Assembly (NCBI GenBank): GCA_038065575.1
Contig: JBBTQT010000136.1
Span: 1 to 25,021, forward strand
Reading direction: 5' to 3'
DNA: 25,021 bases
Source of the DNA: Patescibacteria group bacterium
GTDB lineage: Bacteria > Patescibacteriota > Patescibacteriia > Magasanikbacterales > UBA922
In this document: one piece after another, positions 3,418-16,760 of the stretch
Layout: each line of letters begins with the position of its first letter
Numbering within the stretch: position 1 is the first letter of the stretch
Program-made: the position numbers and the translations under genes
Notes under the pieces: generated by a model
The model's database searches: none
Told to the model about the DNA's origin: nothing
Seen by the model: only the letters and a program-made list of their open reading frames with translations

Positions 3418-3726
3418 ATGTCAACGATCATGGTTGTCGTAGAACATCGCCTTGATCCAAAAGAGGCGATCCGAAGAATCAAGGAGGCGTACATGGGCAA
3501 GAAGGCCAAGTACGCCAGCATCGCCACCGTTCAGACGGAGGAATGGGAGGATTTGGCCGGCGCGGTCACGGCCAGTGTGCTCGGAACAACCATCACCGGC
3601 ACAGTGCAGTGTCAAGAAGAGACGGTTACGGCCGTCTGTGAACTGCCTCTGCCCCTGAAGGTAATCTTCGGGCGTGATCTCCATGAAAAAATTGAGAACC
3701 GGCTCACAAGCCTGCTCTCAAAATAA
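3418..3726 (+). CDS. Polyhydroxyalkanoic-acid-system (PHA_gran_rgn-like) small protein
   Basis: 102 aa. The pattern HxLxxxEAxxRI...W...G...G...V...LP..L..F...IE..L resembles PF09650. Only plus-strand gene in the window. Confidence 0.65.
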   Translation: MSTIMVVVEHRLDPKEAIRRIKEAYMGKKAKYASIATVQTEEWEDLAGAVTASVLGTTITGTVQCQEETVTAVCELPLPLKVIFGRDLHEKIENRLTSLLSK

Positions 3727-3749
3727 AGTGGAGAAATTACTGGCAAAAG

Positions 3750-3778
3750 CTTGGGGTCGAGAAAATCTCGGCCCCAAG
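3750..3778 (+). terminator. GC-rich hairpin downstream of the PHA_gran_rgn-like gene (terminator or stability element)
   Basis: CTTGGGGTCGAG-AAAAT-CTCGGCCCCAAG, a 12-bp stem with one G-U pair. No U-tract follows. Confidence 0.45.
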
Positions 3779-3865
3779 TGAATGCCCCGCCGAAAAAATT
3801 ACAAATCATTCCCCGTGTACGAAAGATTTAAACTTTTATTTATCAAATGTCAATCATAATTCAAT

Positions 3866-3896
3866 AAAAAACGCTCGCTATTTCAGCGAGCGTTTT
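3866..3896 (-). terminator. Intrinsic terminator of groES-groEL
   Basis: Stem AAAACGCTCGCT / AGCGAGCGTTTT with a 5-nt loop. The minus-strand stem ends in a 6-T run. Confidence 0.85.
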
Positions 3897-3903
3897 CGTA
3901 CTT

Positions 3904-3932
3904 GTTCTATGTTCTATGCTCTATGTTCCATG
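3904..3932. repeat. Heptamer tandem array, second family (G-T/C-T-C-T/C-A-T x4)
   Basis: GTTCTAT GTTCTAT GCTCTAT GTTCCAT, immediately after the groEL stop. Confidence 0.85.
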
Positions 3933-3934
3933 CC

Positions 3935-5871
<1,937 letters not shown>

Positions 5872-5902
5872 ACCGATTGGAGTTAATAAATAAATTTAAG
5901 CT

Positions 5903-5929
5903 TTATCACTCTACCACCGAGAGTGATAA
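5903..5929. promoter_or_regulatory. CIRCE-like operator (HrcA site variant)
   Basis: TTATCACTC-N9-GAGTGATAA, against the canonical TTAGCACTC-N9-GAGTGCTAA, 31 nt upstream of groES. Confidence 0.85.
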
Positions 5930-5972
5930 TAGTCAAGACCCCATTTTAGCAGTAGTTTTCACTTTTTGTCAA
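5908..5972 (-). promoter_or_regulatory. Tandem sigma70-type promoters of groESL
   Basis: P1: TTGACA (5972-5967) - N18 - TAAAAT (5948-5943) with a TGn extension. P2: TTGACT (5936-5931) - N17 - TAGAGT (5913-5908) with TGn, overlapping the CIRCE. Confidence 0.65.
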
Positions 5973-6002
5973 GGCTCGTAAAAGACATTTTCCCCGCCAA
6001 AC

Positions 6003-6163
6003 AAAAAAGCCCAGAATAGGTAATGAGCTCGGTATGACGACCTTTACAAGCCAGCGATGCCTGTCAGCGGCGCTAACTTCCTGTGGCGTGCATTCCGTGC
6101 CTATTACCTATTATAGGCTCTTTATTTTCACCCCGCACTTATCAATAGATTATAAACACTAAT
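6003..6163 (-). ncRNA. Candidate structured small RNA, family unassigned
   Basis: Has its own consensus promoter and no ORF. Folds by eye into a rod-like hairpin (AATAGGTAAT 6015-6024 pairs with ATTACCTATT 6103-6112; AAGTTAGCG pairs with CGCTGGCTT) and ends in GGGCTTTTTT. Confidence 0.55.
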
Positions 6164-6169
6164 AAAGTT

Positions 6170-6198
6170 ATTATAGACTACTTGATCATCCCCGTCAA
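6170..6198 (-). promoter_or_regulatory. Near-consensus sigma70 promoter
   Basis: TTGACG (6198-6193) - N17 - TATAAT (6175-6170). Confidence 0.8.
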
Positions 6199-6241
6199 AT
6201 CAAAATTTAAGCTAAAATAAGCCAAAATCAATACCAGTGGA

Positions 6242-7573
6242 CTAACTGTGGACAGTTGGCCTGAAAATGATACCGAGATATGTCGCAAAGCTGAACATTT
6301 CGACCGGCAATGACCAAAAATAGTGATCAAACGATAATCCGAAAATAAGCGGAATGAGCAAAAACAACTCCAAATGCCAATTTTTCTTTGGTTTTATGAG
6401 GCGGAAATACCGTACAAATGAAGCCGACAACCCGAGGAAAATTATCACTCCGACCACCCCCATTTCGGCCGTAAACAACAGCGCCGTATTATGCGCCGGC
6501 TGATACTCCCAGCCCGGTCGGGAATTATCAAGGAGATACGCGGCGACGGTATAATTCCCGCTACCGACACCAAGCCAGGGATGGCGAGCGATAATTCGTC
6601 CTGCTTCGTCATATCCGGAAATTCGTTCTTGAACCGAGGTTATTTCCGAAGCGGAAATTCCCACCAGACGGGTTTTGACAAGAGGTGAGTAAATAATTCC
6701 GCCGATAAAAAAAATTAAAATCGGCAGTGATAAAAAAACAGCAAAGTTTTTTGACAAAGTTTTATTCCATAATCCCAAACCGCCGAACAGCGCGAACGCC
6801 GCCACGAGCATCCCCGCCGCGCTTCGGCTGAAAGAAAAAAATAAAGCGGCGGAAATAATGACAATGAACAAACTTAATATGATTTTTTTGCCTGATTTTT
6901 GAATCGGATTATCGGAAATGAAATAAAACACTGACATGAGTACCAGCGCGAGGTAACCGCCGAAAATATTGGGATGCGCGAATGATCCGTAAGCGCGCAG
7001 CCACCGGCCTGATCCCCCGACAATCGCCGTCCCCGCCTCGGACGGAAGATGCGCGGACAATCCGAGCCAAGGCGCCGGCCAGGTTGTTTGCGCGAGGAAT
7101 TGCGCGATACCCAAAATAGCCGGAATAACGCTCCCCAGCAGGAACCAAAAAATAATTTCTTTTTTAGTAGTCGGTCCGAGATAGATAACGAAAAAAAGCA
7201 AAATGGCTTCCAGTAGATGAATTGAGTGTTGAAAAGCGATTTCCCGAACCGGTGACCAAACGACGGACAGAAATGAATAGAGAATAAAAATCAAAACAAA
7301 CAGCGTGAACACCCGATCCGGCGTCCAAGAAAAAACAATTTTATTCTCTTTGACCGCCCGCGCCACTCGGCGCCCCGACCACCAAAAAAACAGCAAAAAA
7401 ACAATCCAGGCGACGGCCTCCGACAAAAAAAATTGGGTCGCGCCATACTGCCATTTATAACCGTTCAAATACCGTTCGCGAACAATCCAAACCGTTTGCC
7501 AAGGCAAGACAAATAGATACCCCCTTATAAGAACACGAAAAATCGTTTCCAGACTGATTTTTGAAATAAACAT
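6242..7573 (-). CDS. O-antigen ligase / Wzy_C family membrane protein
   Basis: Multi-pass membrane protein with RAYGSFAHPNIFGGYL, SFSRSA, GVGSGNY and PAHN motifs. Confidence 0.85.
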   Translation of the reverse strand: MFISKISLETIFRVLIRGYLFVLPWQTVWIVRERYLNGYKWQYGATQFFLSEAVAWIVFLLFFWWSGRRVARAVKENKIVFSWTPDRVFTLFVLIFILYSFLSVVWSPVREIAFQHSIHLLEAILLFFVIYLGPTTKKEIIFWFLLGSVIPAILGIAQFLAQTTWPAPWLGLSAHLPSEAGTAIVGGSGRWLRAYGSFAHPNIFGGYLALVLMSVFYFISDNPIQKSGKKIILSLFIVIISAALFFSFSRSAAGMLVAAFALFGGLGLWNKTLSKNFAVFLSLPILIFFIGGIIYSPLVKTRLVGISASEITSVQERISGYDEAGRIIARHPWLGVGSGNYTVAAYLLDNSRPGWEYQPAHNTALLFTAEMGVVGVIIFLGLSASFVRYFRLIKPKKNWHLELFLLIPLIFGLSFDHYFWSLPVEMFSFATYLGIIFRPTVHS

Positions 7574-7583
7574 GGCAGTGTAA

Positions 7584-7667
7584 GAATTACGAATTACGAA
7601 TTACGAATTTACGACTACGAAGTGCGTAAGGACACAATTCGTAATTCGTAATTTTTAATTCGTAATT
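7584..7667. repeat. Heptamer-armed inverted-repeat element (AATTACG family)
   Basis: Left arm (GAATTAC)x3 GAATT. Right arm GGACAC-AATTCGTAATTCGTAATTTTTAATTCGTAATT, which contains the stop codon of the upstream gene. Confidence 0.9.
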
Positions 7668-8593
7668 TTCTCGCGCCACCTCTCCCGATACTCCGCTCGC
7701 CGGTCGTTCTCGTGGAATTTCAGCATTTCATCATTCACGACGACGCCGATCCCGAGCGCGCGCCGTCGGTAATCATGATTTCCGGCTATTTTTTTCAACT
7801 GAATTTTTTTGCAAAAACCATTAAGGGCCTCGCCCGTTCGCCCGCTGAAAATTTTTTCAACCGCCGAGTGCGAAAAAAATTCCAATTTATTCAATTTGAC
7901 TTCTAAAATTGACGACAAACTGTAATTCGCGCGGTTATTTTTTACGAAATCGCGCGTCCAGGAATTTTCCGCCAAAACCCGGCAATAATACTCCGCCCCT
8001 CCATAAACCGGTAGGAGCATCAACAGCCAGTATATCAGGTAAACATCCGGAGGATCGAGAGAAACTCCGGACAAATTCAAACTGTTTTCCGTAACATAAA
8101 AACTCAAACAAACCCGATCGGCGATTTTGCGCCTTCCCCGGCGTAAGTTCGTGATACTCATGAGCAGGGTTACGAACATTCGAACGAGCCAGATTTTATC
8201 GTGAGCGGCCACGATAAACAAATCAATATCACTGTCCTTTTTCGGCCAGCCGGCCGCGAGCGTGTTGCAAACGAACACCGCTCGAACGAATGGCACACGG
8301 CTTATCATTTTGATGGCGCGACGGGCAATGCGCGTTTTATGCTCCACCAAAAGAACATTATTCAACCTGGTTTCAACAATTTTTTCCCGTCTCGGCAAAA
8401 AAAAGAAACCGTTTAGCCGACCAACCGATCCGGCCGTTATCGCGCGATCCAGAGCAAGCTGAAAATCAACGTGCGTGCCGCCAATCGGCCCGTCCCACAA
8501 GAAATGTTCCAGTTCGGACGCGGTGAGAGGATAATCAAAAATATCAAAATAAGCCAAAGTTTTTTTGATGCTGATGATAAAATCATCGATCAT
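7655..8593 (-). CDS. Nucleotidyltransferase-domain protein (CPR-type, N-terminal helical/wHTH region)
   Basis: KTLAYFDIFDYPLT at the N-terminus and the DSDIDLFIV Pol-beta-like NTase motif. Confidence 0.75.
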   Translation of the reverse strand: MIDDFIISIKKTLAYFDIFDYPLTASELEHFLWDGPIGGTHVDFQLALDRAITAGSVGRLNGFFFLPRREKIVETRLNNVLLVEHKTRIARRAIKMISRVPFVRAVFVCNTLAAGWPKKDSDIDLFIVAAHDKIWLVRMFVTLLMSITNLRRGRRKIADRVCLSFYVTENSLNLSGVSLDPPDVYLIYWLLMLLPVYGGAEYYCRVLAENSWTRDFVKNNRANYSLSSILEVKLNKLEFFSHSAVEKIFSGRTGEALNGFCKKIQLKKIAGNHDYRRRALGIGVVVNDEMLKFHENDRRAEYRERWREKITN

Positions 8594-8661
8594 ACTTCAA
8601 ATATTCATTCCCCGGCCACACCGTCATTATCGGCCAAAAATGCCCGTTCGGGGCATCTTTT

Positions 8662-8955
8662 TTAACTTCTTTCCGACAGCGCCGCCGGTTCGGTTTTCGC
8701 GGACGCCGATTGGCGCGCCTCAATTCCACCATCCCGAACGACGGCATCGTCCACAATTATTTTTCGATCGGTAAATTCAACGATTTGATCGCGGCTGACG
8801 AGATATTCCTTCCGGCTGACGAAAGACGGCTTCACCCAATATTGAACCACCGCCTGTCCGTCAATTTCAATTTCCAGATTGTAAACATGCCCAAGCGTTT
8901 TGCCGGAAACGGTCTCCACTTCCAGATATTTTAGAGTCTTTAAGTCCAACCTCAT
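8662..8955 (-). CDS. PRC-barrel domain protein
   Basis: LEVETVSGKTLGHVYNLEIEID...IIVDD pattern. Confidence 0.75.
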   Translation of the reverse strand: MRLDLKTLKYLEVETVSGKTLGHVYNLEIEIDGQAVVQYWVKPSFVSRKEYLVSRDQIVEFTDRKIIVDDAVVRDGGIEARQSASAKTEPAALSERS

Positions 8956-8985
8956 AGCCGAATATTCACCAGATTATAATCCCGA

Positions 8986-9723
8986 TTATTTTTGAACGGT
9001 AAGCGCGCCGACATCGGTTCCGGTTTTTCGAAATAATATCATCTGTTGCGCGACGGTAAGCAGAGTGGACAAGAACCAATACAGCGTCAAGCCGGCGGGC
9101 ATTTTCATGCCGATGAACGCCGTCATAAGCGGCAGGAAATACAGCATCTGCTTGTTCATCATCGCGGTCATATTTTCATCCTTGGCCCCTTCTCCGGCCA
9201 CCTTCGGCGCTTTCTTTCTGATGAACATTTTTGATTGGAAGTATTGCGCCGCGCCGGCCAATAACGCCAGAACGATGCTGTTATTTTTCAGATCAAACAA
9301 TCCGAAAGTCACGGTATTCAGCTGTCCGGGATTGGTGACGAACGGATAAAGTTTGTCAAAATTATTTGACGCCAGGCCGGCCTGCAAAACCATATAAAGA
9401 GCGATGAATATCGGCAGTTGCACCAAAATCGGCAGGCAGGATCCGAGCGGATTGACTTTGTGTTCCTTGTACATTTTCATCGTCTCCTGCGCCAACAATT
9501 GTTTGTCATCCTTGAATTTGGCTTTCAATTCATCCAGTCGTGGCTGCATTTCCGATAAGGATTTCTGCGCCTTGATGGAAGATGCCGTCAACGGATAAAG
9601 CAATAATTTGATAACGACGGTAATGACAAGAATCACTACTCCCACATCCGGGATGAAATTATAAAGCAGAACAAATGAATTGAAGATTGGCTGATAAACA
9701 ACTGTTTGAAACAAAGCGATCAT
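8986..9723 (-). CDS. yidC: Membrane protein insertase YidC/Oxa1 (short form)
   Basis: KLLLYPL, QETMKMYKEHKVNPLGSCLPILVQLPIFIALY, PAGLTLYW. Start set at MIALFQ. Confidence 0.95.
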   Translation of the reverse strand: MIALFQTVVYQPIFNSFVLLYNFIPDVGVVILVITVVIKLLLYPLTASSIKAQKSLSEMQPRLDELKAKFKDDKQLLAQETMKMYKEHKVNPLGSCLPILVQLPIFIALYMVLQAGLASNNFDKLYPFVTNPGQLNTVTFGLFDLKNNSIVLALLAGAAQYFQSKMFIRKKAPKVAGEGAKDENMTAMMNKQMLYFLPLMTAFIGMKMPAGLTLYWFLSTLLTVAQQMILFRKTGTDVGALTVQK

Positions 9724-9727
9724 AGTC

Positions 9728-9888
9728 AATTACGAATTAAAAATTACTCGGCTTCGCTTCGCTACGCCGAGCAGGCGAATTACCGCGTCATTCTGATCGG
9801 AGCGAAGAATCCCTTTAGGGGAATTACGAATTAACGATTACGAATGCGAAAGCATGAACCCGCCGGACACAATTCGTAATTCGTAATT
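9728..9888. repeat. Heptamer-armed element whose left arm is interrupted by two palindromic inserts
   Basis: AATTACGAATTAAAAATTAC [29-nt insert 9748-9776] GAATTAC [37-nt insert 9784-9820, containing CGTCATTCTGATCGGAGCGAAGAATC] GAATTACGAATT ... GGACAC-AATTCGTAATTCGTAATT. Confidence 0.85.
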
Positions 9889-9942
9889 GCCACCATTATA
9901 CCACGAATAAAACCAATCCCGCCATTATTCTACCGCCGGTTT

Positions 9943-11172
9943 CTATTCGGCTGTTTCTTCAATTTTTTCAGGTTCTTGCGTCGCGCTTTCCTCGACAACT
10001 GCCGGTTCTTCATCGCTGCTGACGATTTTTTCGCCCCCCTGCTCCACCACTTTTATTTTCCAGCCGGTAAGTTCGGCCGCCAAACGCACATTTTGGCCTT
10101 CGCGTCCGATCGCCAAAGAAAATTGATCCGGCACCACGTATACCACCGCTTCTTTGGTATCACCATTCAATTCCACTCCAGCCACTTTGGCCGGCGACAA
10201 AGCGTGCTTGATGTATTGTTCGGCATTGTCATTATACTGGATTACATCGATTTTCTCTCCGCCTAATTCCTCAATGATGGTGGTGATGCGACTGCCTCTC
10301 TGGCCGATACAGGAACCGATCGGATCAATATTTTCATCCGCGGTGAATACCGCCACCTTGGAACGGTTGCCGGCATCGCGGGCGATTCCTTTTATTTCCA
10401 CTTCCCCGCTGGCAATTTCCGGAATTTCCTGTTCAAAAATCACCTGCACCATCCGCTTATCGGCGCGAGAAAGAATTATCTCCGGCCCGCGTTGTCCCAT
10501 GGCGACCGATGCCACATAAAATTTCATTCTGGTTCCGAGCTTATAATGATCTCTTCTCGTTTGTTCGCCGGCCGGCACGAGGCCGGTTACTTTGCCAAGA
10601 TCCACAATCAACGCGCCACCCCGATCAAATCTCTGCACAAAACCGAAAACAATACTGCCCTGCTGTTTCTTGAAATCTTCCAGAACCGTGTTTCTTTCCG
10701 CTTCGCGCAATTTTTGAATGATGACTTGTTTGGCGGTTTGCGCCGCCATTCGGCCGAAATCTCCGCCCACTTCCAAATCAATAATCAAAGTTTCGCCCAC
10801 CTTCACTTTCGGCTTAATCGCTTTCGCTTCGGTAATCATTATCTCCGTCTTCGGATTAAAATGCGCCAAATCGGCAATTTCTTCCTCGGCCAGCTCTCTT
10901 TGTTCCTTATGCGCCTGCTCTCTCCGTTCGGCCAATTCCACCTGGGCTTTTTCCAATTCCTCGGCGTCAATATCTTCCACCACGATTTTTTCATCCCAAA
11001 CCTTCATGTCGCCGGTGTCCGGATCAAATTTCACCTTGATATTTTGCTGGCGATTGCCAAAATCCTTGCGGTAAGCCGCGGCCATGGCCGATTCCAAGGC
11101 TTCCATCACCATTTCGTAAGATAAATTTTTTTCATCGCAGAGAATCTGGATGGCTTTCGTTATTTCCGACAT
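9943..11172 (-). CDS. nusA: Transcription factor NusA
   Basis: FGRMAAQTAKQVIIQKLREAER, S1 and KH domains, GSCIGQRGSRI, LAIGREGQNVRLAAELTGWKI. Confidence 0.98.
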   Translation of the reverse strand: MSEITKAIQILCDEKNLSYEMVMEALESAMAAAYRKDFGNRQQNIKVKFDPDTGDMKVWDEKIVVEDIDAEELEKAQVELAERREQAHKEQRELAEEEIADLAHFNPKTEIMITEAKAIKPKVKVGETLIIDLEVGGDFGRMAAQTAKQVIIQKLREAERNTVLEDFKKQQGSIVFGFVQRFDRGGALIVDLGKVTGLVPAGEQTRRDHYKLGTRMKFYVASVAMGQRGPEIILSRADKRMVQVIFEQEIPEIASGEVEIKGIARDAGNRSKVAVFTADENIDPIGSCIGQRGSRITTIIEELGGEKIDVIQYNDNAEQYIKHALSPAKVAGVELNGDTKEAVVYVVPDQFSLAIGREGQNVRLAAELTGWKIKVVEQGGEKIVSSDEEPAVVEESATQEPEKIEETAE

Positions 11173-11251: not shown

Positions 11252-11280
11252 ATAATACCACCGGCGCGACCGATTGTCAA
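11252..11280 (-). promoter_or_regulatory. Sigma70 promoter of nusA
   Basis: TTGACA (11280-11275) - N17 - TATTAT (11257-11252) with a TGn extension. Confidence 0.8.
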
Positions 11281-11330: not shown

Positions 11331-11657
11331 CTATTCGGTGAGCGCCGACAAGTAGTCCAAACAGCCATTCATGGTTTTGAAGGGTGTGCCGAGAAGCAGG
11401 CCTTCGCATTGACTGGCGCTTTTGGCCGCCCCGCAATAGTTGACAAGACTGTTACCAAGTCCGGAATCATATAACTGCGAGCCGTAAGCGCACCACACCG
11501 GCGAATTTTCTTCCCGGCTTTTGTCTCGTGACGCTAATGTAAAAGCGAAGACCGCGGAAGCACCACCCAAAAGAACCGCGGCCATTGCCAATTTAACCAA
11601 GGAGAAAGTTCTGGCTTTTACTTTGGAGTGGCGTCCGATTTTCTTGGGCGCGGGCAT
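11331..11657 (-). CDS. Hypothetical exported or membrane-anchored Cys-containing protein (108 aa)
   Basis: Basic N-terminus, hydrophobic KLAMAAVLLGGA segment and four Cys. Start set at MPAPKK, 4 nt after the upstream stop. Confidence 0.7.
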   Translation of the reverse strand: MPAPKKIGRHSKVKARTFSLVKLAMAAVLLGGASAVFAFTLASRDKSREENSPVWCAYGSQLYDSGLGNSLVNYCGAAKSASQCEGLLLGTPFKTMNGCLDYLSALTE

Positions 11658-11661
11658 AGGA

Positions 11662-12795
11662 TTATATTGCCGGGGTGGAGGTGGCAGGGGTTGTCGATGC
11701 GAGATAGAACTTAAAAAGTGTCGCGTCATCTAAACCTAGAGTAGAATACACATTTTTCCCATCTTTATTCCTGACAAGCGCGTAGACATTAGGGGATGCT
11801 TCGGACGCCACAAATATATAGCTACTGGATTTACCCCATTTGGCTTTACCCACATTTGATTTAAAAGCTACATTTTCTGGAAATGCCCCAAAATTGCCAC
11901 CATACACCACTAAAAATCCATACTCCACATTGCCGTCATCATTCAATACTTTGTCTACGCTAATTTTAACTTTCTTATGTTTCAAAGTATCATAGTTAAC
12001 CTTAACTACATTACCCGGGTACGGCAGATTCCCCTTTGCCATTGAATTATTATACACCATCGGATTGTTATTATTGACAACGCTGATTGTCGTCTGATCG
12101 ATAATCGGCTGTTTGGCAGTGGAGGTTGGAGTAATCGGAGTGGTAGATGTGGTGCTACTGGTAAAAGAAATTGCATTATAAAGCCACATATAAGTCCCAT
12201 CGTCAATTCCTAAGCCGGGAAATGTGAACAAATTGTCAGCGTTCTTAGCCAATACATACACATAGAATTTCGATTCTGTATTGACAAACATGTATTGTTT
12301 TGATTTTGTCCAGACCACTTTATCAATCACTTGACTCTTAAACGCCAAATTGTTATCAACAATGCTTGAATAGGTGTCATAAGACACATAGTAACCGTAA
12401 ACCGTATTGGCATCTGCATTATCAACCGCCTTAACAGTTACTACTACTTTATTATTGACGCTTTCGGACGAATATTGTCCCAAATAACCAAGATAATATG
12501 TCAAATTTCCTTGAGCAGCTGACATTTTTTGGGAAAATATTTGTTTAGCATTACCAGGTGCTTTTACTTCCAATGACACTTCCTTGATTACCGGCTGTAG
12601 GGCCTTATTGTACCCATACCCATATCCGCCCTTACCGGAACCGTCACTCCCCGCCCCACCCATTCCGGCCACGGCCGCCGCCGCGAGTGCCGCCGCTCCC
12701 AAAAATGCCACGGCGATCGCCATCTTGGCGGAAGTGACGACACCGGTCTTGACCTGAACGCCGACGGCTGGCGCGCTTGCTTCCAGTACTGACAT
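11662..12795 (-). CDS. Hypothetical surface protein with two tandem ~145-aa repeats
   Basis: Signal or anchor KMAIAVAFLGAA, Gly linker, GYGYGY, two homologous domains and Thr/Ser/Pro linkers. Confidence 0.8.
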   Translation of the reverse strand: MSVLEASAPAVGVQVKTGVVTSAKMAIAVAFLGAAALAAAAVAGMGGAGSDGSGKGGYGYGYNKALQPVIKEVSLEVKAPGNAKQIFSQKMSAAQGNLTYYLGYLGQYSSESVNNKVVVTVKAVDNADANTVYGYYVSYDTYSSIVDNNLAFKSQVIDKVVWTKSKQYMFVNTESKFYVYVLAKNADNLFTFPGLGIDDGTYMWLYNAISFTSSTTSTTPITPTSTAKQPIIDQTTISVVNNNNPMVYNNSMAKGNLPYPGNVVKVNYDTLKHKKVKISVDKVLNDDGNVEYGFLVVYGGNFGAFPENVAFKSNVGKAKWGKSSSYIFVASEASPNVYALVRNKDGKNVYSTLGLDDATLFKFYLASTTPATSTPAI

Positions 12796-12848: not shown

Positions 12849-13853
12849 TTAACAAGCCACGCCGAGATACAGCGGATCATCTTTGAGTGGCGCGTTCAAT
12901 TCATCCAAACATTTTTTGGCCGCGTCCAATGTCGTCACTACGCCCAATTCCGCCAGCGAACATTTGCCGAGAGGATAAGACAGCAAAGCCCCGGCATCAA
13001 TCTCTAATGGCACAATCTGATTCCGCACGCTGAATAGCGGTATTCCTTTGTATACTCCCACGCAAGCGTATTTGAAGAGAATATCTTCAATCGCCTTTTT
13101 TGATAATTCCGGAAATCCTTTCAACCGTTCACCGCAAGCGTCCGGACTAGTGGCGCCGGTATCGCAAAATTTGGCGGTGTCCGTCGTTTCCGTCTGATTT
13201 TGCGTTTCAGCGGTGTCAGCTTGTTCGGTCTCGGCCGGTGGAACCGGAATATTCTCGGCCAAAGCGGACTTGACAACCGGCACGACCAAGTTTTTTTCGT
13301 TGTTGGTTTCATCAAATTCCGGAATATTTCCATCCGATTTATTTTCAACAAAATCAACATAGCCGAATATTCTTAATGACGAACCGTCAAAAACGGTTTC
13401 AACATCCCGATTAAGAACAATCTTCAGCATCGCGGTTTCGCCCGGCGCCAAATTGAATTTATTGTCCTCGCCGGCGGTTTCGCTTGATTTATCCGCCATT
13501 CCGATGGAAAGACCGGCATCATGGAATACGCCGGCCGGTTCAGTGGTAACGGCAATTTGAAACGGCTGACCGACCGTGGCCTTGCCGATATTCTGATATA
13601 CCACGCTAAGCTCCAGATCACTCGCGCCGTCATAATCGCCACTTACATTCAAAAACAAATCATTGACCACCAAATCCGGTTCTTTGAAATTCACCACAAC
13701 CGGCGGCGGAAGCGGGTCCCTTGATCTTGAACTCGGCAAACTCGGCCGAACCATACTGGCGGCGGCGAGCAAATTGGCTCCGCTGAGGAAAGCCAAAGCC
13801 ACGGCGATTTTCAGGCTGGAAATCGTACTTGTTTTCGCGACAATATCGTTCAT
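12849..13853 (-). CDS. Exported protein with a CARDB-like Ig domain and a Cys-rich C-terminus
   Basis: PDLVV...YQNIG...LAPGET...VD...IPEFDETNN resembles CARDB. N-terminal anchor KIAVALAFLSGA. Confidence 0.75.
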   Translation of the reverse strand: MNDIVAKTSTISSLKIAVALAFLSGANLLAAASMVRPSLPSSRSRDPLPPPVVVNFKEPDLVVNDLFLNVSGDYDGASDLELSVVYQNIGKATVGQPFQIAVTTEPAGVFHDAGLSIGMADKSSETAGEDNKFNLAPGETAMLKIVLNRDVETVFDGSSLRIFGYVDFVENKSDGNIPEFDETNNEKNLVVPVVKSALAENIPVPPAETEQADTAETQNQTETTDTAKFCDTGATSPDACGERLKGFPELSKKAIEDILFKYACVGVYKGIPLFSVRNQIVPLEIDAGALLSYPLGKCSLAELGVVTTLDAAKKCLDELNAPLKDDPLYLGVAC

Positions 13854-13877: not shown

Positions 13878-15071
13878 TTAGTGAATTTCCTCTTTGTCCA
13901 TCCCCACCCATTCCGCGACCACTTCCTTGATGTGATCCGCGTCCACTAACGGCCAATCGTTTTCCTCATCGCCATTTTTTTCTTCCACTTGAATTTGTTT
14001 CACTACTCGCACCGCCATTCCTCTTAATTTATGCAATTCATTGAAATCCTTGGTGTTTTCCTCCAATTTTAATAATCCGGCCAATTCTTTTTTCAATTTA
14101 TTTATTTTTTCCGAATTTACCGACCGGTTTTCCGCGTCAGCCAATTTTCGCGCCGCGCCGTGCAGAAGAGCCGCCGCGTGATCCGGAACGGCACCGGCCT
14201 CCACATTGACCATCGCCGCCGCTTCGTCAATCAAATCAATCGCCTTGTCCGGCAAACGCCGACCGGTGATGTACTCCTGCGAAAGAGTGACTGCCGCCCG
14301 AATCGCCTCGTCGGAAAATTTCACCTTGTGGTAGGTTTCATAATTCTTTTTAATGCCCTGAAGAATATTAATGGACTCTTCCACACTCGGTTCATCAACG
14401 AGAACGCGTTGAAAACGCCGATCCCAACTTTCTTCCGGTTGAATGTACTGCTCATATTCCTTTTGCGTGGTGGCGCCGATAAGCTGCATATCGCCGCGCG
14501 CGAGCGCCGGTTTCAAAATATCCGACAAATTCACCGACCCTTCCGCGCCTCGCGTCTGCATGACAGTATGGATTTCATCAATAAAAAGTATAATACTGCG
14601 ATTTGACAACCGGATTTCCTCCACCAGATGCTTGATTCTCTGCTCAAATTCACCGCGGTATTTGGTGCCGGCCAGTAATTCGGCCACTTGCAAGGATAGC
14701 ACTCTTTTCTTCGCGAGAATCGCCGGAACATCATTCGTAACGATCTTCAAAGCCAACCCCTCCACGATGGCGGTCTTCCCCACACCGGGCGGTCCGACCA
14801 AAATTGCGTTATTTTTGGCACGACGCGCCAAAATTTGCGTAACGCGCGTTATTTCTTTTTCCCGGCCGACAACCGGATCAATCGTTCCCTCGGCCGCGAG
14901 ACGGGTGACATCAATGGCGTATGAATCCAAGGTCTTCGTGCCGGTACCACCGCGCGAAAACGAAAAACCGCCCCCTTCCTTTCCTTTGGAAAAAAGATAA
15001 ATCGTCACGCCGGCCACCAGGAGAAATACCCCCGCCCAACGAAAGATATCGGGGAGAATCGTTGCGGTCAT
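13878..15071 (-). CDS. Membrane-anchored Clp/Hsp100-like ATPase containing only the first AAA+ module
   Basis: N-terminal TM helix (WAGVFLLVAGVTIYLF), DPVVGREKEI, Walker A GPPGVGKT, pore loop KYRGEFE, Walker B LFIDE, RRLPDKAIDLIDEAAA. Ends at EVVAEWVG, with no second NBD. Confidence 0.9.
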   Translation of the reverse strand: MTATILPDIFRWAGVFLLVAGVTIYLFSKGKEGGGFSFSRGGTGTKTLDSYAIDVTRLAAEGTIDPVVGREKEITRVTQILARRAKNNAILVGPPGVGKTAIVEGLALKIVTNDVPAILAKKRVLSLQVAELLAGTKYRGEFEQRIKHLVEEIRLSNRSIILFIDEIHTVMQTRGAEGSVNLSDILKPALARGDMQLIGATTQKEYEQYIQPEESWDRRFQRVLVDEPSVEESINILQGIKKNYETYHKVKFSDEAIRAAVTLSQEYITGRRLPDKAIDLIDEAAAMVNVEAGAVPDHAAALLHGAARKLADAENRSVNSEKINKLKKELAGLLKLEENTKDFNELHKLRGMAVRVVKQIQVEEKNGDEENDWPLVDADHIKEVVAEWVGMDKEEIH

Positions 15072-15186: not shown

Positions 15187-15369
15187 CTAAAAAAAACTTA
15201 TCAACATATTAAAAAGCCCAAATGACAGAATCAATGTGCATAACCCCAAACCGACTGCTACCAGCGTCATTTCCGCCGGTGAATTTTTAGGCAATTTTTT
15301 CCGCCCGACAAAAAACACCAAACCGCCAAACAATCCGACCAAAACCGGGCTTACAATTGATAAATCCAT
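15187..15369 (-). CDS. Small two-TM hypothetical protein (60 aa)
   Basis: Two hydrophobic stretches separated by GRKKLPKNSP. Overlaps the upstream gene by 19 nt. Confidence 0.55.
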   Translation of the reverse strand: MDLSIVSPVLVGLFGGLVFFVGRKKLPKNSPAEMTLVAVGLGLCTLILSFGLFNMLISFF

Positions 15370-16760
15370 AAATAACGGTTAATGGCAACGAAAGCGGGAT
15401 CGTTCAAAAATTGTTCTCTTTGCCACTGATCCCTTTCGCCCATAAAAATATATATTTCCTTTTCTTGATATTTCTGAAAAAGATTTTTCCTGACGTCGGA
15501 ATCGTTTGAGTACCAAAATCGCATCCATTCCTCCCTATTCCAACGGTTCGCTTCAAACATACCCGGAGCGATCACTTCGTGATTGCTAAAACCATACAGC
15601 CAAGGCGCGTAATAAGAAGACAGCGCCATGAGAGGTTTATTATTCGGCAAAACTTGCGTCTCTACTATGGCCGTAAATTCCGCCGCGGTCAGAAGCGGCC
15701 GGAAACCCGCAAGTTGATGCAGGCTCCTCCCGATTGATATGGCCACCGCTACCGCTAACATTATCTTCCAGATCGGCCTATGACCGAATTTATCAATCTC
15801 GCCACCGAGCCAACCGCAGGCAATGATAATCAAGACTATGTCCAAATAAACAAAATAACGGCGATACAAAACAAATCCACCGACGATCAACAAACTGTAA
15901 ATAAAGGCGAGGATGGAAATCAGAGGAACGCGCCGCCAGACAAAAAACACGCCGGCAACGGCAAAAGGAAAATACAACAGACCGGATCTCCAAAAATAAC
16001 TGAAATCAATGAACTGGCCGGTAAATTCGTTGGTTTCGGAAAATAGATAATTGCCAAATACCGGCACCGCGCCCTTCACAATGGTCAAATAATCAAGATA
16101 GCCCCGCCACTCCGGCCAATTCAAGCCGGCCACGGCCACCGCGGAAACGGCCAAGCTGATAATCAAAAACTTCCGGTCTTCTTTTCTGATGACACCATAC
16201 ACACTCAAACCCAAAAAAAACGGAATGAAAGATGGGGGGTGGATAGATCCGATCACGATCGCCGGCAGAATAATCAAATACGAACGAAACTCAAACAAGT
16301 AAAGCGCGAGCATCGTAAAAAAGACCGCCAGCAGATTGCGATAATAGTACCATTGATAAAATTCAAACTGTACGAGCGAAGTGGCCATGGCGAGAACCGC
16401 CAAGATCGCGGCCGTCCGATTGAACCATTTTTTCATGAGCGCGTATAGAAACACGACGATGCCAAGACTTATCAATAAATACCAACCGATCAATATCTCA
16501 GGAAGACTCGTCCGAATAACCAAGAGCGCGTTGGAAAAACCGGAAAAAGCGAAAGAAGGGGCGGTTGGGTCTCCCAAACGATCAAAGAAACCGACAATAT
16601 GATGCCGATAAATACCAAAATCATACCCGAAACCCCGCTCGCCATATCGCCAAATGAGATAAAGACGGTTCGCGAGGTAATACCCGAAAATCAAAAAAAC
16701 GGCCACGGTCGGTCGGGTAATTTTGATTCCATTCCGCCTGACTATTTCCAAAAATCTCAT
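15351..16760 (-). CDS. Multi-pass membrane protein, probable GT-C-fold glycosyltransferase
   Basis: About 11-12 hydrophobic segments, an acidic residue in the first external loop (GFGYDFGIY), the SIHP motif and a soluble C-terminal domain. Confidence 0.6.
   Translation of the reverse strand: MRFLEIVRRNGIKITRPTVAVFLIFGYYLANRLYLIWRYGERGFGYDFGIYRHHIVGFFDRLGDPTAPSFAFSGFSNALLVIRTSLPEILIGWYLLISLGIVVFLYALMKKWFNRTAAILAVLAMATSLVQFEFYQWYYYRNLLAVFFTMLALYLFEFRSYLIILPAIVIGSIHPPSFIPFFLGLSVYGVIRKEDRKFLIISLAVSAVAVAGLNWPEWRGYLDYLTIVKGAVPVFGNYLFSETNEFTGQFIDFSYFWRSGLLYFPFAVAGVFFVWRRVPLISILAFIYSLLIVGGFVLYRRYFVYLDIVLIIIACGWLGGEIDKFGHRPIWKIMLAVAVAISIGRSLHQLAGFRPLLTAAEFTAIVETQVLPNNKPLMALSSYYAPWLYGFSNHEVIAPGMFEANRWNREEWMRFWYSNDSDVRKNLFQKYQEKEIYIFMGERDQWQREQFLNDPAFVAINRYLWIYQL

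What the first reader, a model, noticed from the sequence alone, without database searches (positions are those of the whole stretch)
13878..15071. Membrane-tethered half-Clp ATPase
Seen: a TM helix and Gly-rich linker replace the Clp N-domain. NBD1 has intact Walker A/B, the pore-loop Tyr and RRF arginine fingers, followed by a short coiled coil. The protein stops cleanly where NBD2 would begin, and no NBD2 sequence follows. Known: ClpA/B/C have two NBDs and the ClpP-docking loop is in NBD2, so this protein should not engage ClpP in the usual way. Inference: a single-ring membrane dislocase or unfoldase, analogous in role to Msp1 or the FtsH ATPase ring, possibly acting on neighbouring anchored proteins.
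Basis: partly seen in the sequence, partly recalled or inferred. Interest (0 to 1): 0.68.

Follow-up and report, generated by a model that had tools for sequence, protein, structure and literature searches.

The report
Membrane-tethered single-ring Clp ATPase module
A groundwater ultra-small bacterium (Patescibacteria) encodes a conserved, membrane-anchored "half" of a Clp/Hsp100 unfolding machine, almost always next to surface-protein genes that share a threonine-striped N-terminal tail, which suggests a dedicated and undescribed machine for handling those membrane proteins.

Summary
ORF 13878-15071 (-) encodes 397 aa: an N-terminal TM helix, a roughly 17-aa Gly/Ser linker, a complete Clp NBD1 with invariant Walker A/B, KYRG pore loop and RRF arginine fingers, a ClpC-sized M-domain coiled coil, and a stop exactly where NBD2 would begin.

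It is not a truncation. More than 100 homologues of 330-410 aa with the same TM anchor form one clade (SH-aLRT 99), separate from the NBD1s of full-length Clps. They occur patchily across Patescibacteria. The genome also holds three two-ring Clps and one ClpP, but no stand-alone NBD2.

New here: the gene is nearly always adjacent to 1-3 genes for proteins with variable extracellular domains and a shared N-terminal signal. That signal is a 10-20-aa cytoplasmic tail with Thr at every second position, a Lys/Arg, then an Ala/Gly-rich anchor helix. In the order, the signal was found in 12 of 14 genomes with the half-Clp and in none of 17 without it. The pair is present or absent as a cassette and stays linked in different genomic contexts.

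Best reading, which is inferred: a single-ring unfoldase whose entry face points at the membrane and which engages these tails. The family and the signal have no curated model, and I found no paper on them.

The parts
13878..15071 (-). Gene for the 397-aa membrane-tethered NBD1-only Clp/Hsp100 ATPase (the 'half-Clp')
14976..15059 (-). N-terminal transmembrane helix (residues 5-32), predicted N-out/C-in
   Evidence: Modelled as a helix. A hydrophobic N-terminal helix is present in nearly all homologues. Net charge is -0.9 before and +2.5 after the helix, averaged over 128 members.
14937..14975 (-). Gly/Ser-rich flexible linker (residues 33-45)
   Evidence: pLDDT is below 50 here. The family median linker length is 17 aa, about half of it G/S/T/N/P/Q.
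14199..14936 (-). NBD1 AAA+ module (residues 46-291). It holds Walker A at 14772-14795, pore loop KYRG at 14652-14663, Walker B at 14574-14591 and Arg fingers R218/R219 at 14415-14420.
13968..14165 (-). ClpC-sized M-domain-like coiled coil (residues 303-368). It is variable, and absent from the roughly 340-aa size class of the family.
13881..13949 (-). Last strand and helix of the NBD1 small domain (residues 375-397, W388 invariant). The stop at 13878-13880 falls where NBD2 would start.
12849..13853 (-). Partner protein 1 (334 aa). The N-terminal (T-x)n tail, Lys and Ala/Gly-rich anchor helix lie at 13740-13853, followed by a CARDB-like extracellular domain.
   Evidence: Motif HMM E 1e-12 to 3e-15. 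The CARDB-like similarity to the Pfam-CARDB neighbour in L008 has E 2e-5.
11662..12795 (-). Partner protein 2 (377 aa). The same N-terminal signal lies at 12658-12759, with an unrelated extracellular part.
   Evidence: Motif HMM E 4e-14 to 4e-10
11331..11657 (-). Probable partner protein 3 (about 108 aa from Met25 of the 132-aa ORF), with a weaker version of the signal (K/R-rich tail plus LVKLAMAAVLLGGA helix)
Evidence: E 0.05 among all locus ORFs, and 6e-5 when tested alone.
15351..16760 (-). Context only: a 469-aa polytopic membrane protein with a GT-C (PMT_2/STT3-like) predicted fold. It is not part of the core module; it sits next to the half-Clp in 2 of the loci examined (this window and G008).
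15187..15369 (-). Context only: a 60-aa hydrophobic ORF between the GT-C-like gene and the half-Clp. Function unknown and not followed up.

Best explanation
This is a functional member of an old Patescibacteria-specific family of Clp/Hsp100 derivatives. The Clp N-domain is replaced by a single N-out/C-in transmembrane helix plus a short flexible linker, and NBD2 is absent.

The protein most likely assembles into a single hexameric ring just under the cytoplasmic membrane, with its substrate-entry (N-terminal) face pointing at the membrane. That is the geometry of FtsH and Msp1.

Its clients or partners are the 1-3 proteins encoded beside it. These are N-in/C-out signal-anchored surface proteins. 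Their only shared feature is a short cytoplasmic tail with Thr at every second residue, ending in Lys/Arg, followed by an Ala/Gly-rich membrane helix.

The ring would grip this tail with its KYRG pore loops and pull on it using ATP, so unfolding or dislocating the anchored protein. The purpose could be turnover, quality control or release. Because there is no NBD2 and no ClpP-docking loop, the ring acts without ClpP.

Shown here: the architecture, conservation, monophyly, the gene linkage and co-occurrence, and the topology by charge. Inferred: ring assembly, tail engagement, and the direction and outcome of pulling.
For: - **Architecture and intact catalytic, pore-loop and trans-acting Arg-finger residues:**
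- **Single clade of half-size, TM-anchored proteins (SH-aLRT 99) versus full-length NBD1s:**
- **Purifying selection:** (pN 0.13 against pS 0.675 for L008/L025; dS saturated elsewhere).
- **Distribution:** 14 of 31 genomes of the order, several other families of the class, and other classes of the phylum.
- **Gene complement:** the genome keeps three two-ring Clps and one ClpP, and has no separate NBD2.
- **Specificity of the partner signal in the own genome:** at E <= 1 it hits only the ORFs beside the half-Clp, plus one chance-level match (E 0.98), out of 1089 ORFs.
- **Co-occurrence in the order:** the signal is present in 12 of 14 half-Clp genomes and in 0 of 17 without the half-Clp at E <= 1e-7. 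The other two have divergent copies next to the gene.
- **Adjacency in changing contexts and in both gene orders:**
- **Cassette behaviour:** the whole block is missing between YraN and NusA in relatives without it.
- **Tail periodicity:** Thr at positions -1, -3, -5 ... -13 relative to the conserved K/R in 37 partners.
- **Topology:** positive-inside charges put the ATPase and the tails in the cytoplasm. The linker has a median of 17 aa and the tails are typically 14-17 aa.
- **Established knowledge:** in Clp/Hsp100 proteins the N-terminus of NBD1 lies on the substrate-entry face, and FtsH and Msp1 use the same membrane-facing geometry.
Against: - No biochemical or expression data exist. Only DNA runs were found.
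- In several Hsp100s NBD2, not NBD1, drives hexamer formation, so a lone NBD1 ring is unproven.
- About a quarter of the more distant loci show no signal-bearing neighbour (G049, G090, G189, G277).
- Adjacent genes co-occur partly because they are inherited as one cassette, and related genomes are not independent.
- It is odd for a dislocase to be co-encoded with its own substrates unless the pulling is itself part of their biology.
- The signal in the third window ORF is weak.
Confidence: 0.5

Rival explanations
1. Export helper. The ring is an accessory secretion or targeting ATPase that holds or unfolds the partner pre-proteins by their extended signal n-region and hands them to SecYEG/YidC. 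This would resemble SecA2 for serine-rich glycoproteins, or HSP101 in the Plasmodium PTEX translocon.
For: - The partners carry a specialised, extended N-terminal signal and large extracellular domains of up to about 1300 aa.
- Protein-glycosylation-type genes (Wzy_C/PglL-like, GT-C-like) often sit nearby.
- YidC is close in many loci.
Against: - The entry face of NBD1 is the face tethered to the membrane by six short linkers (median 17 aa). Threading would therefore move chains away from the membrane, not towards it.
- The YidC/NusA proximity is general synteny that also exists in genomes without the module.
Confidence: 0.2
2. Stable complex or regulator. The signal-bearing proteins are subunits or adaptors rather than substrates. 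Their Ala/Gly-rich helix would pack against the ATPase TM helix and their tail would dock on the ring, coupling an extracellular domain (adhesion or sensing) to a cytoplasmic ATPase. A variant of this idea is that the half-Clp co-assembles with, or tethers, the full-length ClpC/ClpB paralogues at the membrane.
For: - The conserved part of the partners includes the membrane helix itself, with small-residue spacing.
- A ClpC-like M-domain, which is an adaptor and regulatory surface in ClpC/ClpB, is retained in the long size class.
- Three full-length Clps coexist in the genome.
Against: - The TM helix of the half-Clp is poorly conserved in sequence.
- The M-domain is dispensable in the roughly 340-aa size class.
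- The pore-loop Tyr and Arg fingers are invariant, which argues for real threading activity.
Confidence: 0.15
3. Decayed remnant. The gene is a recently truncated ClpC/ClpB gene, an assembly artefact, or one half of a split Clp whose NBD2 is encoded elsewhere.
For: It is annotated in public records simply as an 'ATP-dependent Clp protease ATP-binding subunit'. NBD1 identity to ClpC is 42-45%.
Against: - More than 100 full-length homologues of the same size carry the same TM anchor and form one clade.
- The catalytic motifs are invariant.
- The own genome has no stand-alone NBD2.
- The same sequence, stop codon included, occurs in independent samples.
- Relatives lacking the gene have nothing at the site, not a full-length Clp.
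Confidence: 0.03

Closest known systems
ClpC / ClpB / ClpA (class I Clp/Hsp100), first nucleotide-binding domain
   Same: Homologous NBD1 (AAA plus AAA_lid_9) with 42-50% identity. It shares Walker A/B, the KYRG pore loop, the RRF arginine fingers, a ClpC-length M-domain and the closing W-x-G helix. The model superposes on ClpC at 1.7 A.
   Different: It has no Clp_N domain, no NBD2/AAA_2, no D2-small domain and no ClpP-docking loop. A TM helix and linker take the place of the N-domain. It forms its own clade.
FtsH (membrane-anchored AAA+ protease)
   Same: It has an N-terminal membrane anchor and a classic-clade AAA ring whose entry face looks at the membrane. FtsH is known to start on short cytoplasmic tails of membrane proteins (established knowledge). 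The genome has its own FtsH-like gene on C21.
   Different: FtsH has two TM helices with a periplasmic domain and a C-terminal M41 zinc protease. The half-Clp has neither, and it belongs to the Clp NBD1 lineage.
Msp1 / ATAD1 (eukaryotic membrane-protein extractase)
   Same: The same overall plan: one N-terminal TM helix, a short linker, a single AAA ring and no protease. It extracts single-pass proteins by a cytosolic end (established knowledge).
   Different: Msp1/ATAD1 belong to an unrelated AAA subfamily, are eukaryotic, and act on tail-anchored (C-terminal TM) clients. No dedicated, co-encoded client set is known for them.
Skd3/human CLPB and torsins (single-ring Hsp100 relatives)
   Same: They show that a Hsp100-type ATPase can work, or at least persist, with only one of the two rings (for Skd3: PMC7343390, found; abstract only read).
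   Different: Those proteins keep the NBD2-type ring. This family keeps NBD1, the mirror-image case, and is membrane-tethered in a bacterium.
Dedicated-signal surface-protein systems (accessory Sec SecA2/Y2 with KxYKxGKxW signal; PTEX HSP101)
   Same: A special N-terminal signal on a small set of surface proteins, possibly glycosylated, together with a dedicated ATPase encoded nearby. In PTEX a Clp/Hsp100 is coupled to a membrane (PMC6550532, found; abstract only read).
   Different: The ATPase families and geometry differ. There is no dedicated channel gene in this module, and the signal here is a (T-x)n-K tail plus an Ala/Gly helix that has no curated model.

Membership tests
Class I Clp/Hsp100 (ClpA/B/C type) | NBD1 of the AAA plus AAA_lid_9 type, with Walker A/B, pore-loop Tyr and Arg fingers | tested here: met
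Class I Clp/Hsp100 (ClpA/B/C type) | Second nucleotide-binding domain (AAA_2 plus D2-small) in the same polypeptide | tested here: not met
   There is no AAA_2 in the ORF or anywhere on contig C136. All NCBIfam ClpA/B/V/G/K models score far below their cut-offs, for example 363 bits against 1232 for ClpB.
Class I Clp/Hsp100 (ClpA/B/C type) | Clp_N (Clp repeat) N-terminal domain | tested here: not met
   Residues 1-45 are a TM helix plus a disordered linker.
ClpC/ClpA-type ClpP partner | ClpP-docking loop (IGF/LGF type), located in NBD2 | tested here: not met
   There is no NBD2, so the loop has no place to sit. A ClpP gene exists elsewhere in the genome.
ClpC/ClpB | M-domain coiled coil inserted in the NBD1 small domain | tested here: met
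   Helices 303-368 align to ClpC up to residue 457. The roughly 340-aa family members lack it.
FtsH | C-terminal peptidase M41 domain and FtsH-type AAA module | tested here: not met
   The TIGR01241 FtsH model scores 16 bits against a cut-off of 600. No peptidase domain is found.
Msp1/ATAD1-like extractases (functional analogy only) | Single N-terminal TM helix plus a single AAA ring without a protease | tested here: met
   This is an architectural match, not homology within the same AAA subfamily.
Msp1/ATAD1-like extractases (functional analogy only) | ATP-dependent extraction of single-pass membrane proteins | not testable with these tools
   This needs a proteoliposome or in-cell assay.
Proposed half-Clp / (T-x)n-tail module | The signal-bearing gene lies within about 2 genes of the half-Clp and is absent from genomes without it | tested here: met
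   - Order: 12 of 14 half-Clp genomes have an adjacent signal gene; 0 of 17 genomes without the half-Clp have the signal at E <= 1e-7.
- Other families and classes: an adjacent signal gene, or in G061 one about 2.6 kb away, in 10 of 17 loci, not seen in 4, unclear in 3.
- Related genomes are not independent.

The most novel reading that the evidence does not exclude
Patescibacteria possess an undescribed protein-handling system with two parts. One is an N-terminal sorting or handling signal: a cytoplasmic Thr-x dipeptide-repeat tail, a Lys/Arg, and an Ala/Gly-rich anchor helix. It marks a variable set of surface proteins, possibly glycosylated. The other is a dedicated membrane-tethered single-ring Hsp100 that reads the signal. 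The two-residue periodicity of the tail would match the two-residue step of the AAA+ pore-loop staircase. This would be the first NBD1-only Clp machine and the first bacterial Msp1-like extractase with genetically defined clients.
Probability: 0.4. Interest if true: 0.85.

Novelty: new variant of a known kind. Interest (0 to 1): 0.72.

Why it matters
Textbook Clp/Hsp100 proteins have either two rings, or a single ring of the NBD2/ClpX type. A conserved protein that keeps only NBD1, is membrane-anchored and lacks ClpP docking shows that the first ring can be selected for on its own.

It also comes with a built-in experimental handle. The likely clients are encoded next door and carry a short, recognisable tail, so substrate recognition, threading and membrane extraction could be tested directly with defined pairs.

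For Patescibacteria biology it points to a specific way of managing surface proteins, which may be adhesin-like and glycosylated, in organisms that live attached to other cells and cannot yet be handled genetically.

For annotation, both the ATPase family and the N-terminal signal deserve their own models. At present the ATPase is labelled a ClpA/ClpC subunit and the partners are labelled hypothetical.

Tried and rejected
- **dN/dS between homologues:** synonymous sites are saturated in every available pair (pS 0.66-0.72). Only an upper-bound statement is possible; the best pair has pN 0.13 against pS 0.675.
- **Population-level pN/pS from public runs:** the four runs carry the gene without any difference, so there is nothing to count. 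The result is useful only as confirmation of the assembly.
- **RNA evidence:** only DNA runs hold the stretch.
- **Promoter and terminator scan:** counts are at chance level and give no operon boundaries. Only a strong promoter-like site upstream of nusA stands out.
- **Curated families for the partners and their signal:** none in Pfam or NCBIfam.
- **Literature:** four full-text searches found no description of an NBD1-only, membrane-anchored Clp or of the signal. The Thermococcales Ig-domain module paper (PMC8416519) has no ATPase component and is unrelated.
- **Sister group of the family:** the base of the NBD1 tree is an unresolved polytomy, so a ClpB or ClpC origin cannot be assigned.
- **Split-gene hypothesis:** rejected, because there is no stand-alone NBD2 in the genome.
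- **Truncation hypothesis:** rejected.
- **Hexamer or ATPase-plus-tail co-folding:** not possible, because the structure tool takes single chains only.
- **First-generation signal HMM:** it loses sensitivity outside the order. Several distant partners were recognised only by the iterated HMM at weak E-values or by eye.

Full report
**1.

The minus-strand ORF 13878..15071 encodes 397 residues. Pfam finds only AAA (90-206) and AAA_lid_9 (229-324). The nearest solved structures are the first nucleotide-binding domains of ClpC and ClpB, at E about 1e-91, with query 25-341 aligned to ClpC 140-457.

An AlphaFold model built on 68 family members (pLDDT 87.6, pTM 0.78) gives the following layout:
- an N-terminal helix at 5-32;
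- a disordered stretch at 33-45;
- the NBD1 fold at 46-291;
- a helical hairpin or coiled coil at 303-368;
- a closing strand and helix at 375-389.

Foldseek ranks ClpC and ClpB chains first, and 7abr_A superposes at 1.7 A over 354 columns. The following are invariant in the family alignment: Walker A (G93-T100), the pore loop K137-Y138-R139-G140, Walker B (I161-E166), the sensor-1 region GATT, R218/R219 in the RRFQ motif, and the LPDKAID box.

The protein stops about eight residues after the W-x-G motif that ends the NBD1 small domain in two-ring Clps. The next ORF begins 24 nt later and is unrelated. The only NBD2-type (AAA_2) matches in the 1.07-Mb genome lie in three long Clp ORFs on other contigs. 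Contigs from groundwater samples of three studies reproduce the gene, its stop and the junction to the next gene with no differences.

**2. It is a family, not a broken gene**

A word-indexed search returned more than 100 homologues at 52-70% identity. They fall into two size classes, about 390-400 aa and about 335-345 aa, and many sit on long contigs. Those with names are labelled Candidatus Magasanikbacteria. Nearly all begin with a hydrophobic helix followed by Lys/Arg and a Gly/Ser-rich stretch.

In a tree of NBD1 regions, 36 half-size proteins form one clade (SH-aLRT 99) against 66 full-length Clps and the window genome's own ClpC-like and divergent paralogues. The base of the tree is unresolved, so the ancestor type is open.

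Synonymous sites are saturated between all available homologues. The least saturated pair gives pN 0.13 against pS 0.675. Together with the invariant catalytic residues, this means purifying selection.

By ORF size and N-terminal coverage, the gene is present in:
- 14 of 31 genomes of the order;
- about 10 of 121 genomes sampled in the class at a strict threshold;
- at least 16 of 251 genomes sampled in the phylum, including families of other classes.

No claim here rests on the unpublished genome G298.

The window genome also has a ClpB-like gene (split over contigs C137/C96), a ClpC-like gene (C18), a divergent two-ring Clp (C33), an FtsH-like gene (C21) and one clpP. The half-Clp is an extra paralogue, not a replacement. 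No NCBIfam model reaches its cut-off, and four literature searches found nothing on such a protein.

**3. The neighbours are the real lead**

In the window, the three ORFs downstream of the half-Clp (334, 377 and about 108 aa) share an N-terminal pattern but nothing else.

I compared loci from relatives. Almost every half-Clp gene has, on the same strand and usually directly downstream, though sometimes upstream, one to three genes whose products begin with the same pattern. Their extracellular parts range from about 80 to more than 1300 residues. Some are CARDB/Ig-like.

An HMM of 15 such N-termini hits only the ORFs beside the half-Clp among 1089 ORFs of the window genome. An iterated HMM gives the same result even at E <= 1, apart from one chance-level match at E 0.98.

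Across the 31 genomes of the order:
- The signal is found at E <= 1e-7 in 12 genomes, all of which have the half-Clp.
- It is found in none of the 17 genomes without the half-Clp. One of those has a chance-level hit at E 0.003.
- Two of the 12 positives (G004, G011) were not used to build the model.
- The remaining two half-Clp genomes (G023, G027) have divergent versions right beside the gene.

In four relatives without the half-Clp, the genes for NusA, YraN and the methyltransferase are contiguous. In the window, the block of GT-C-like gene, 60-aa ORF, half-Clp and three partners sits between them. In other relatives only the half-Clp plus partners is inserted there, in either order.

Elsewhere the pair appears in unrelated contexts: next to groEL, a helicase, an endonuclease or Wzy-like genes. 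Beyond the order I examined 17 loci:
- An adjacent signal-bearing gene was found in nine: G110, G126, G071, G054, G081, G047, G297, G162 and G165. Some of these were recognised only by eye or at weak E-values. A tenth, G282, has a neighbouring gene with a weak match (E 1e-3), which I count as well.
- In G061 three signal genes lie about 2.6 kb from a half-Clp, and I count this as linked but not adjacent.
- No signal-bearing neighbour was seen in G049, G090, G189 and G277.
- G236 and G390 are unclear because of messy ORFs or contig ends. In G056 and G084 signal genes were seen, but no half-Clp lay within the stretch fetched.

Caveats: related genomes are not independent, and adjacent genes co-occur partly through linkage. 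Even so, linkage that persists across classes while order and context change is the usual signature of a functional pair.

**4. Anatomy of the signal and the geometry**

I aligned 37 partner N-termini on the last Lys/Arg before the membrane helix. Thr occupies positions -1, -3, -5, -7, -9, -11 and -13 (in 28, 19, 18, 18, 17, 16 and 10 sequences). Lys and other polar residues fill the even positions. The tails are 24% Thr and 17% Lys, and mostly 14-17 residues long. An Ala/Gly-rich helix follows, of the type A-x-A-x-A-F-L-G-x-A-x-L-A-A-A-A. The positive tail implies N-in/C-out.

For the ATPase, the short N-terminal stub carries a net charge of -0.9 and the 12 residues after the helix carry +2.5, averaged over 128 members. 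This gives N-out/C-in, with a linker of median 17 aa to NBD1. The ATPase ring and the tails are therefore on the same side, the cytoplasmic one.

In Clp/Hsp100 proteins the N-terminus of NBD1 lies on the substrate-entry face (established knowledge). Six short tethers should then hold that face against the membrane, as in FtsH and Msp1. The invariant trans-acting arginines argue that ring assembly is under selection. The invariant pore-loop Tyr argues for threading.

The two-residue Thr stripe matches the two-residue step with which AAA+ pore loops grip an extended chain. This is an attractive idea, but speculative.

**5. Mechanism and rivals**

My best reading (confidence about 0.5) is a single-ring, ClpP-independent unfoldase or dislocase. 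It would engage the cytoplasmic tails of its co-encoded signal-anchored surface proteins and pull them towards the cytoplasm, for turnover, quality control or release.

The rivals are:
- **Export-assisting ATPase (about 0.2).** This fits the specialised signal and the nearby glycosylation-type genes: Wzy_C in four loci and a GT-C-like fold for the 469-aa neighbour. It fits the ring polarity poorly.
- **Stable complex or regulator, including mixed assemblies with full-length Clps (about 0.15).** This fits the conserved membrane helix and the retained M-domain. The invariant threading residues and the dispensability of the M-domain count against it.
- **Remnant, artefact or split gene (about 0.03).** The data above reject this.

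**6. Comparison and verdict**

By homology this is a Clp/Hsp100 NBD1. By the defining features of class I Clps it fails membership, having no N-domain, no NBD2 and no ClpP loop. By architecture it works like FtsH without the protease, or like Msp1. By logic it resembles systems that pair a special signal with a dedicated ATPase.

I file it as a new variant of a known kind. Interest is 0.72.

Noticed in passing
window 15351-16760 (-): The 469-aa polytopic membrane protein upstream of the half-Clp has no Pfam hit. Its predicted structure matches clusters carrying PMT_2/STT3 (GT-C protein glycosyltransferases), with TM-scores of 0.86/0.79. A homologue sits beside the module in G008 (L034 2030-3433).
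   Followed up: partly
L028 7228-8808, L031 7046-8263, L038 6249-7688, L037 1745-3673; window 6242-7573 (-): Wzy_C (O-antigen-ligase/PglL-like) genes lie directly beside the half-Clp module in four relatives. In the window, ORF 6242-7573 clusters (family 8) with the ORF just upstream of the half-Clp in L031 (4631-5941), and its syntenic counterpart in the closest relative's loci L010/L011 carries Wzy_C in the precomputed Pfam list; it was not scanned against Pfam here. This hints that the partner proteins are O-glycosylated.
   Followed up: partly
L045 (G061:C1) 3630-9972 and 11620-11916: Three signal-bearing genes stand in tandem (591, 421 and 968 aa). About 2.6 kb away on the opposite strand is the C-terminal end of a half-Clp-like gene, which ends after the NBD1 small domain. 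The strict protein search had missed it.
   Followed up: partly
G192:C1:126392-127477: A half-Clp homologue in another class of the phylum is read through two in-frame TAA codons. It may be a pseudogene or a sequencing problem.
   Followed up: no
Own genome contigs C137:1-915 and C96:1-1815: The ClpB-like paralogue of the window's genome is split across two contig ends. The overlapping residues match query positions 44-187 and 167-369. This is an assembly break, not a second half-Clp.
   Followed up: partly
ESM Atlas clusters: Other clusters of short (300-490 aa) AAA plus AAA_lid_9 proteins are listed for Gemmatimonadota, Bacillota, Chloroflexota and even phage-labelled records. Some may be fragments. 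Others may be independent NBD1-only Clp derivatives without a TM anchor.
   Followed up: no
window 11559 and 11562: These are the only two differences (A>G) between the window and contigs of other groundwater runs across 4.1 kb. Both lie in the signal-helix region of the third, small partner ORF.
   Followed up: no
window 11252-11280 (-): A strong sigma-70-like promoter match (11 of 12 positions, with an extended -10 TG) lies just upstream of nusA. This suggests that the half-Clp/partner block and nusA are separate transcription units.
   Followed up: no
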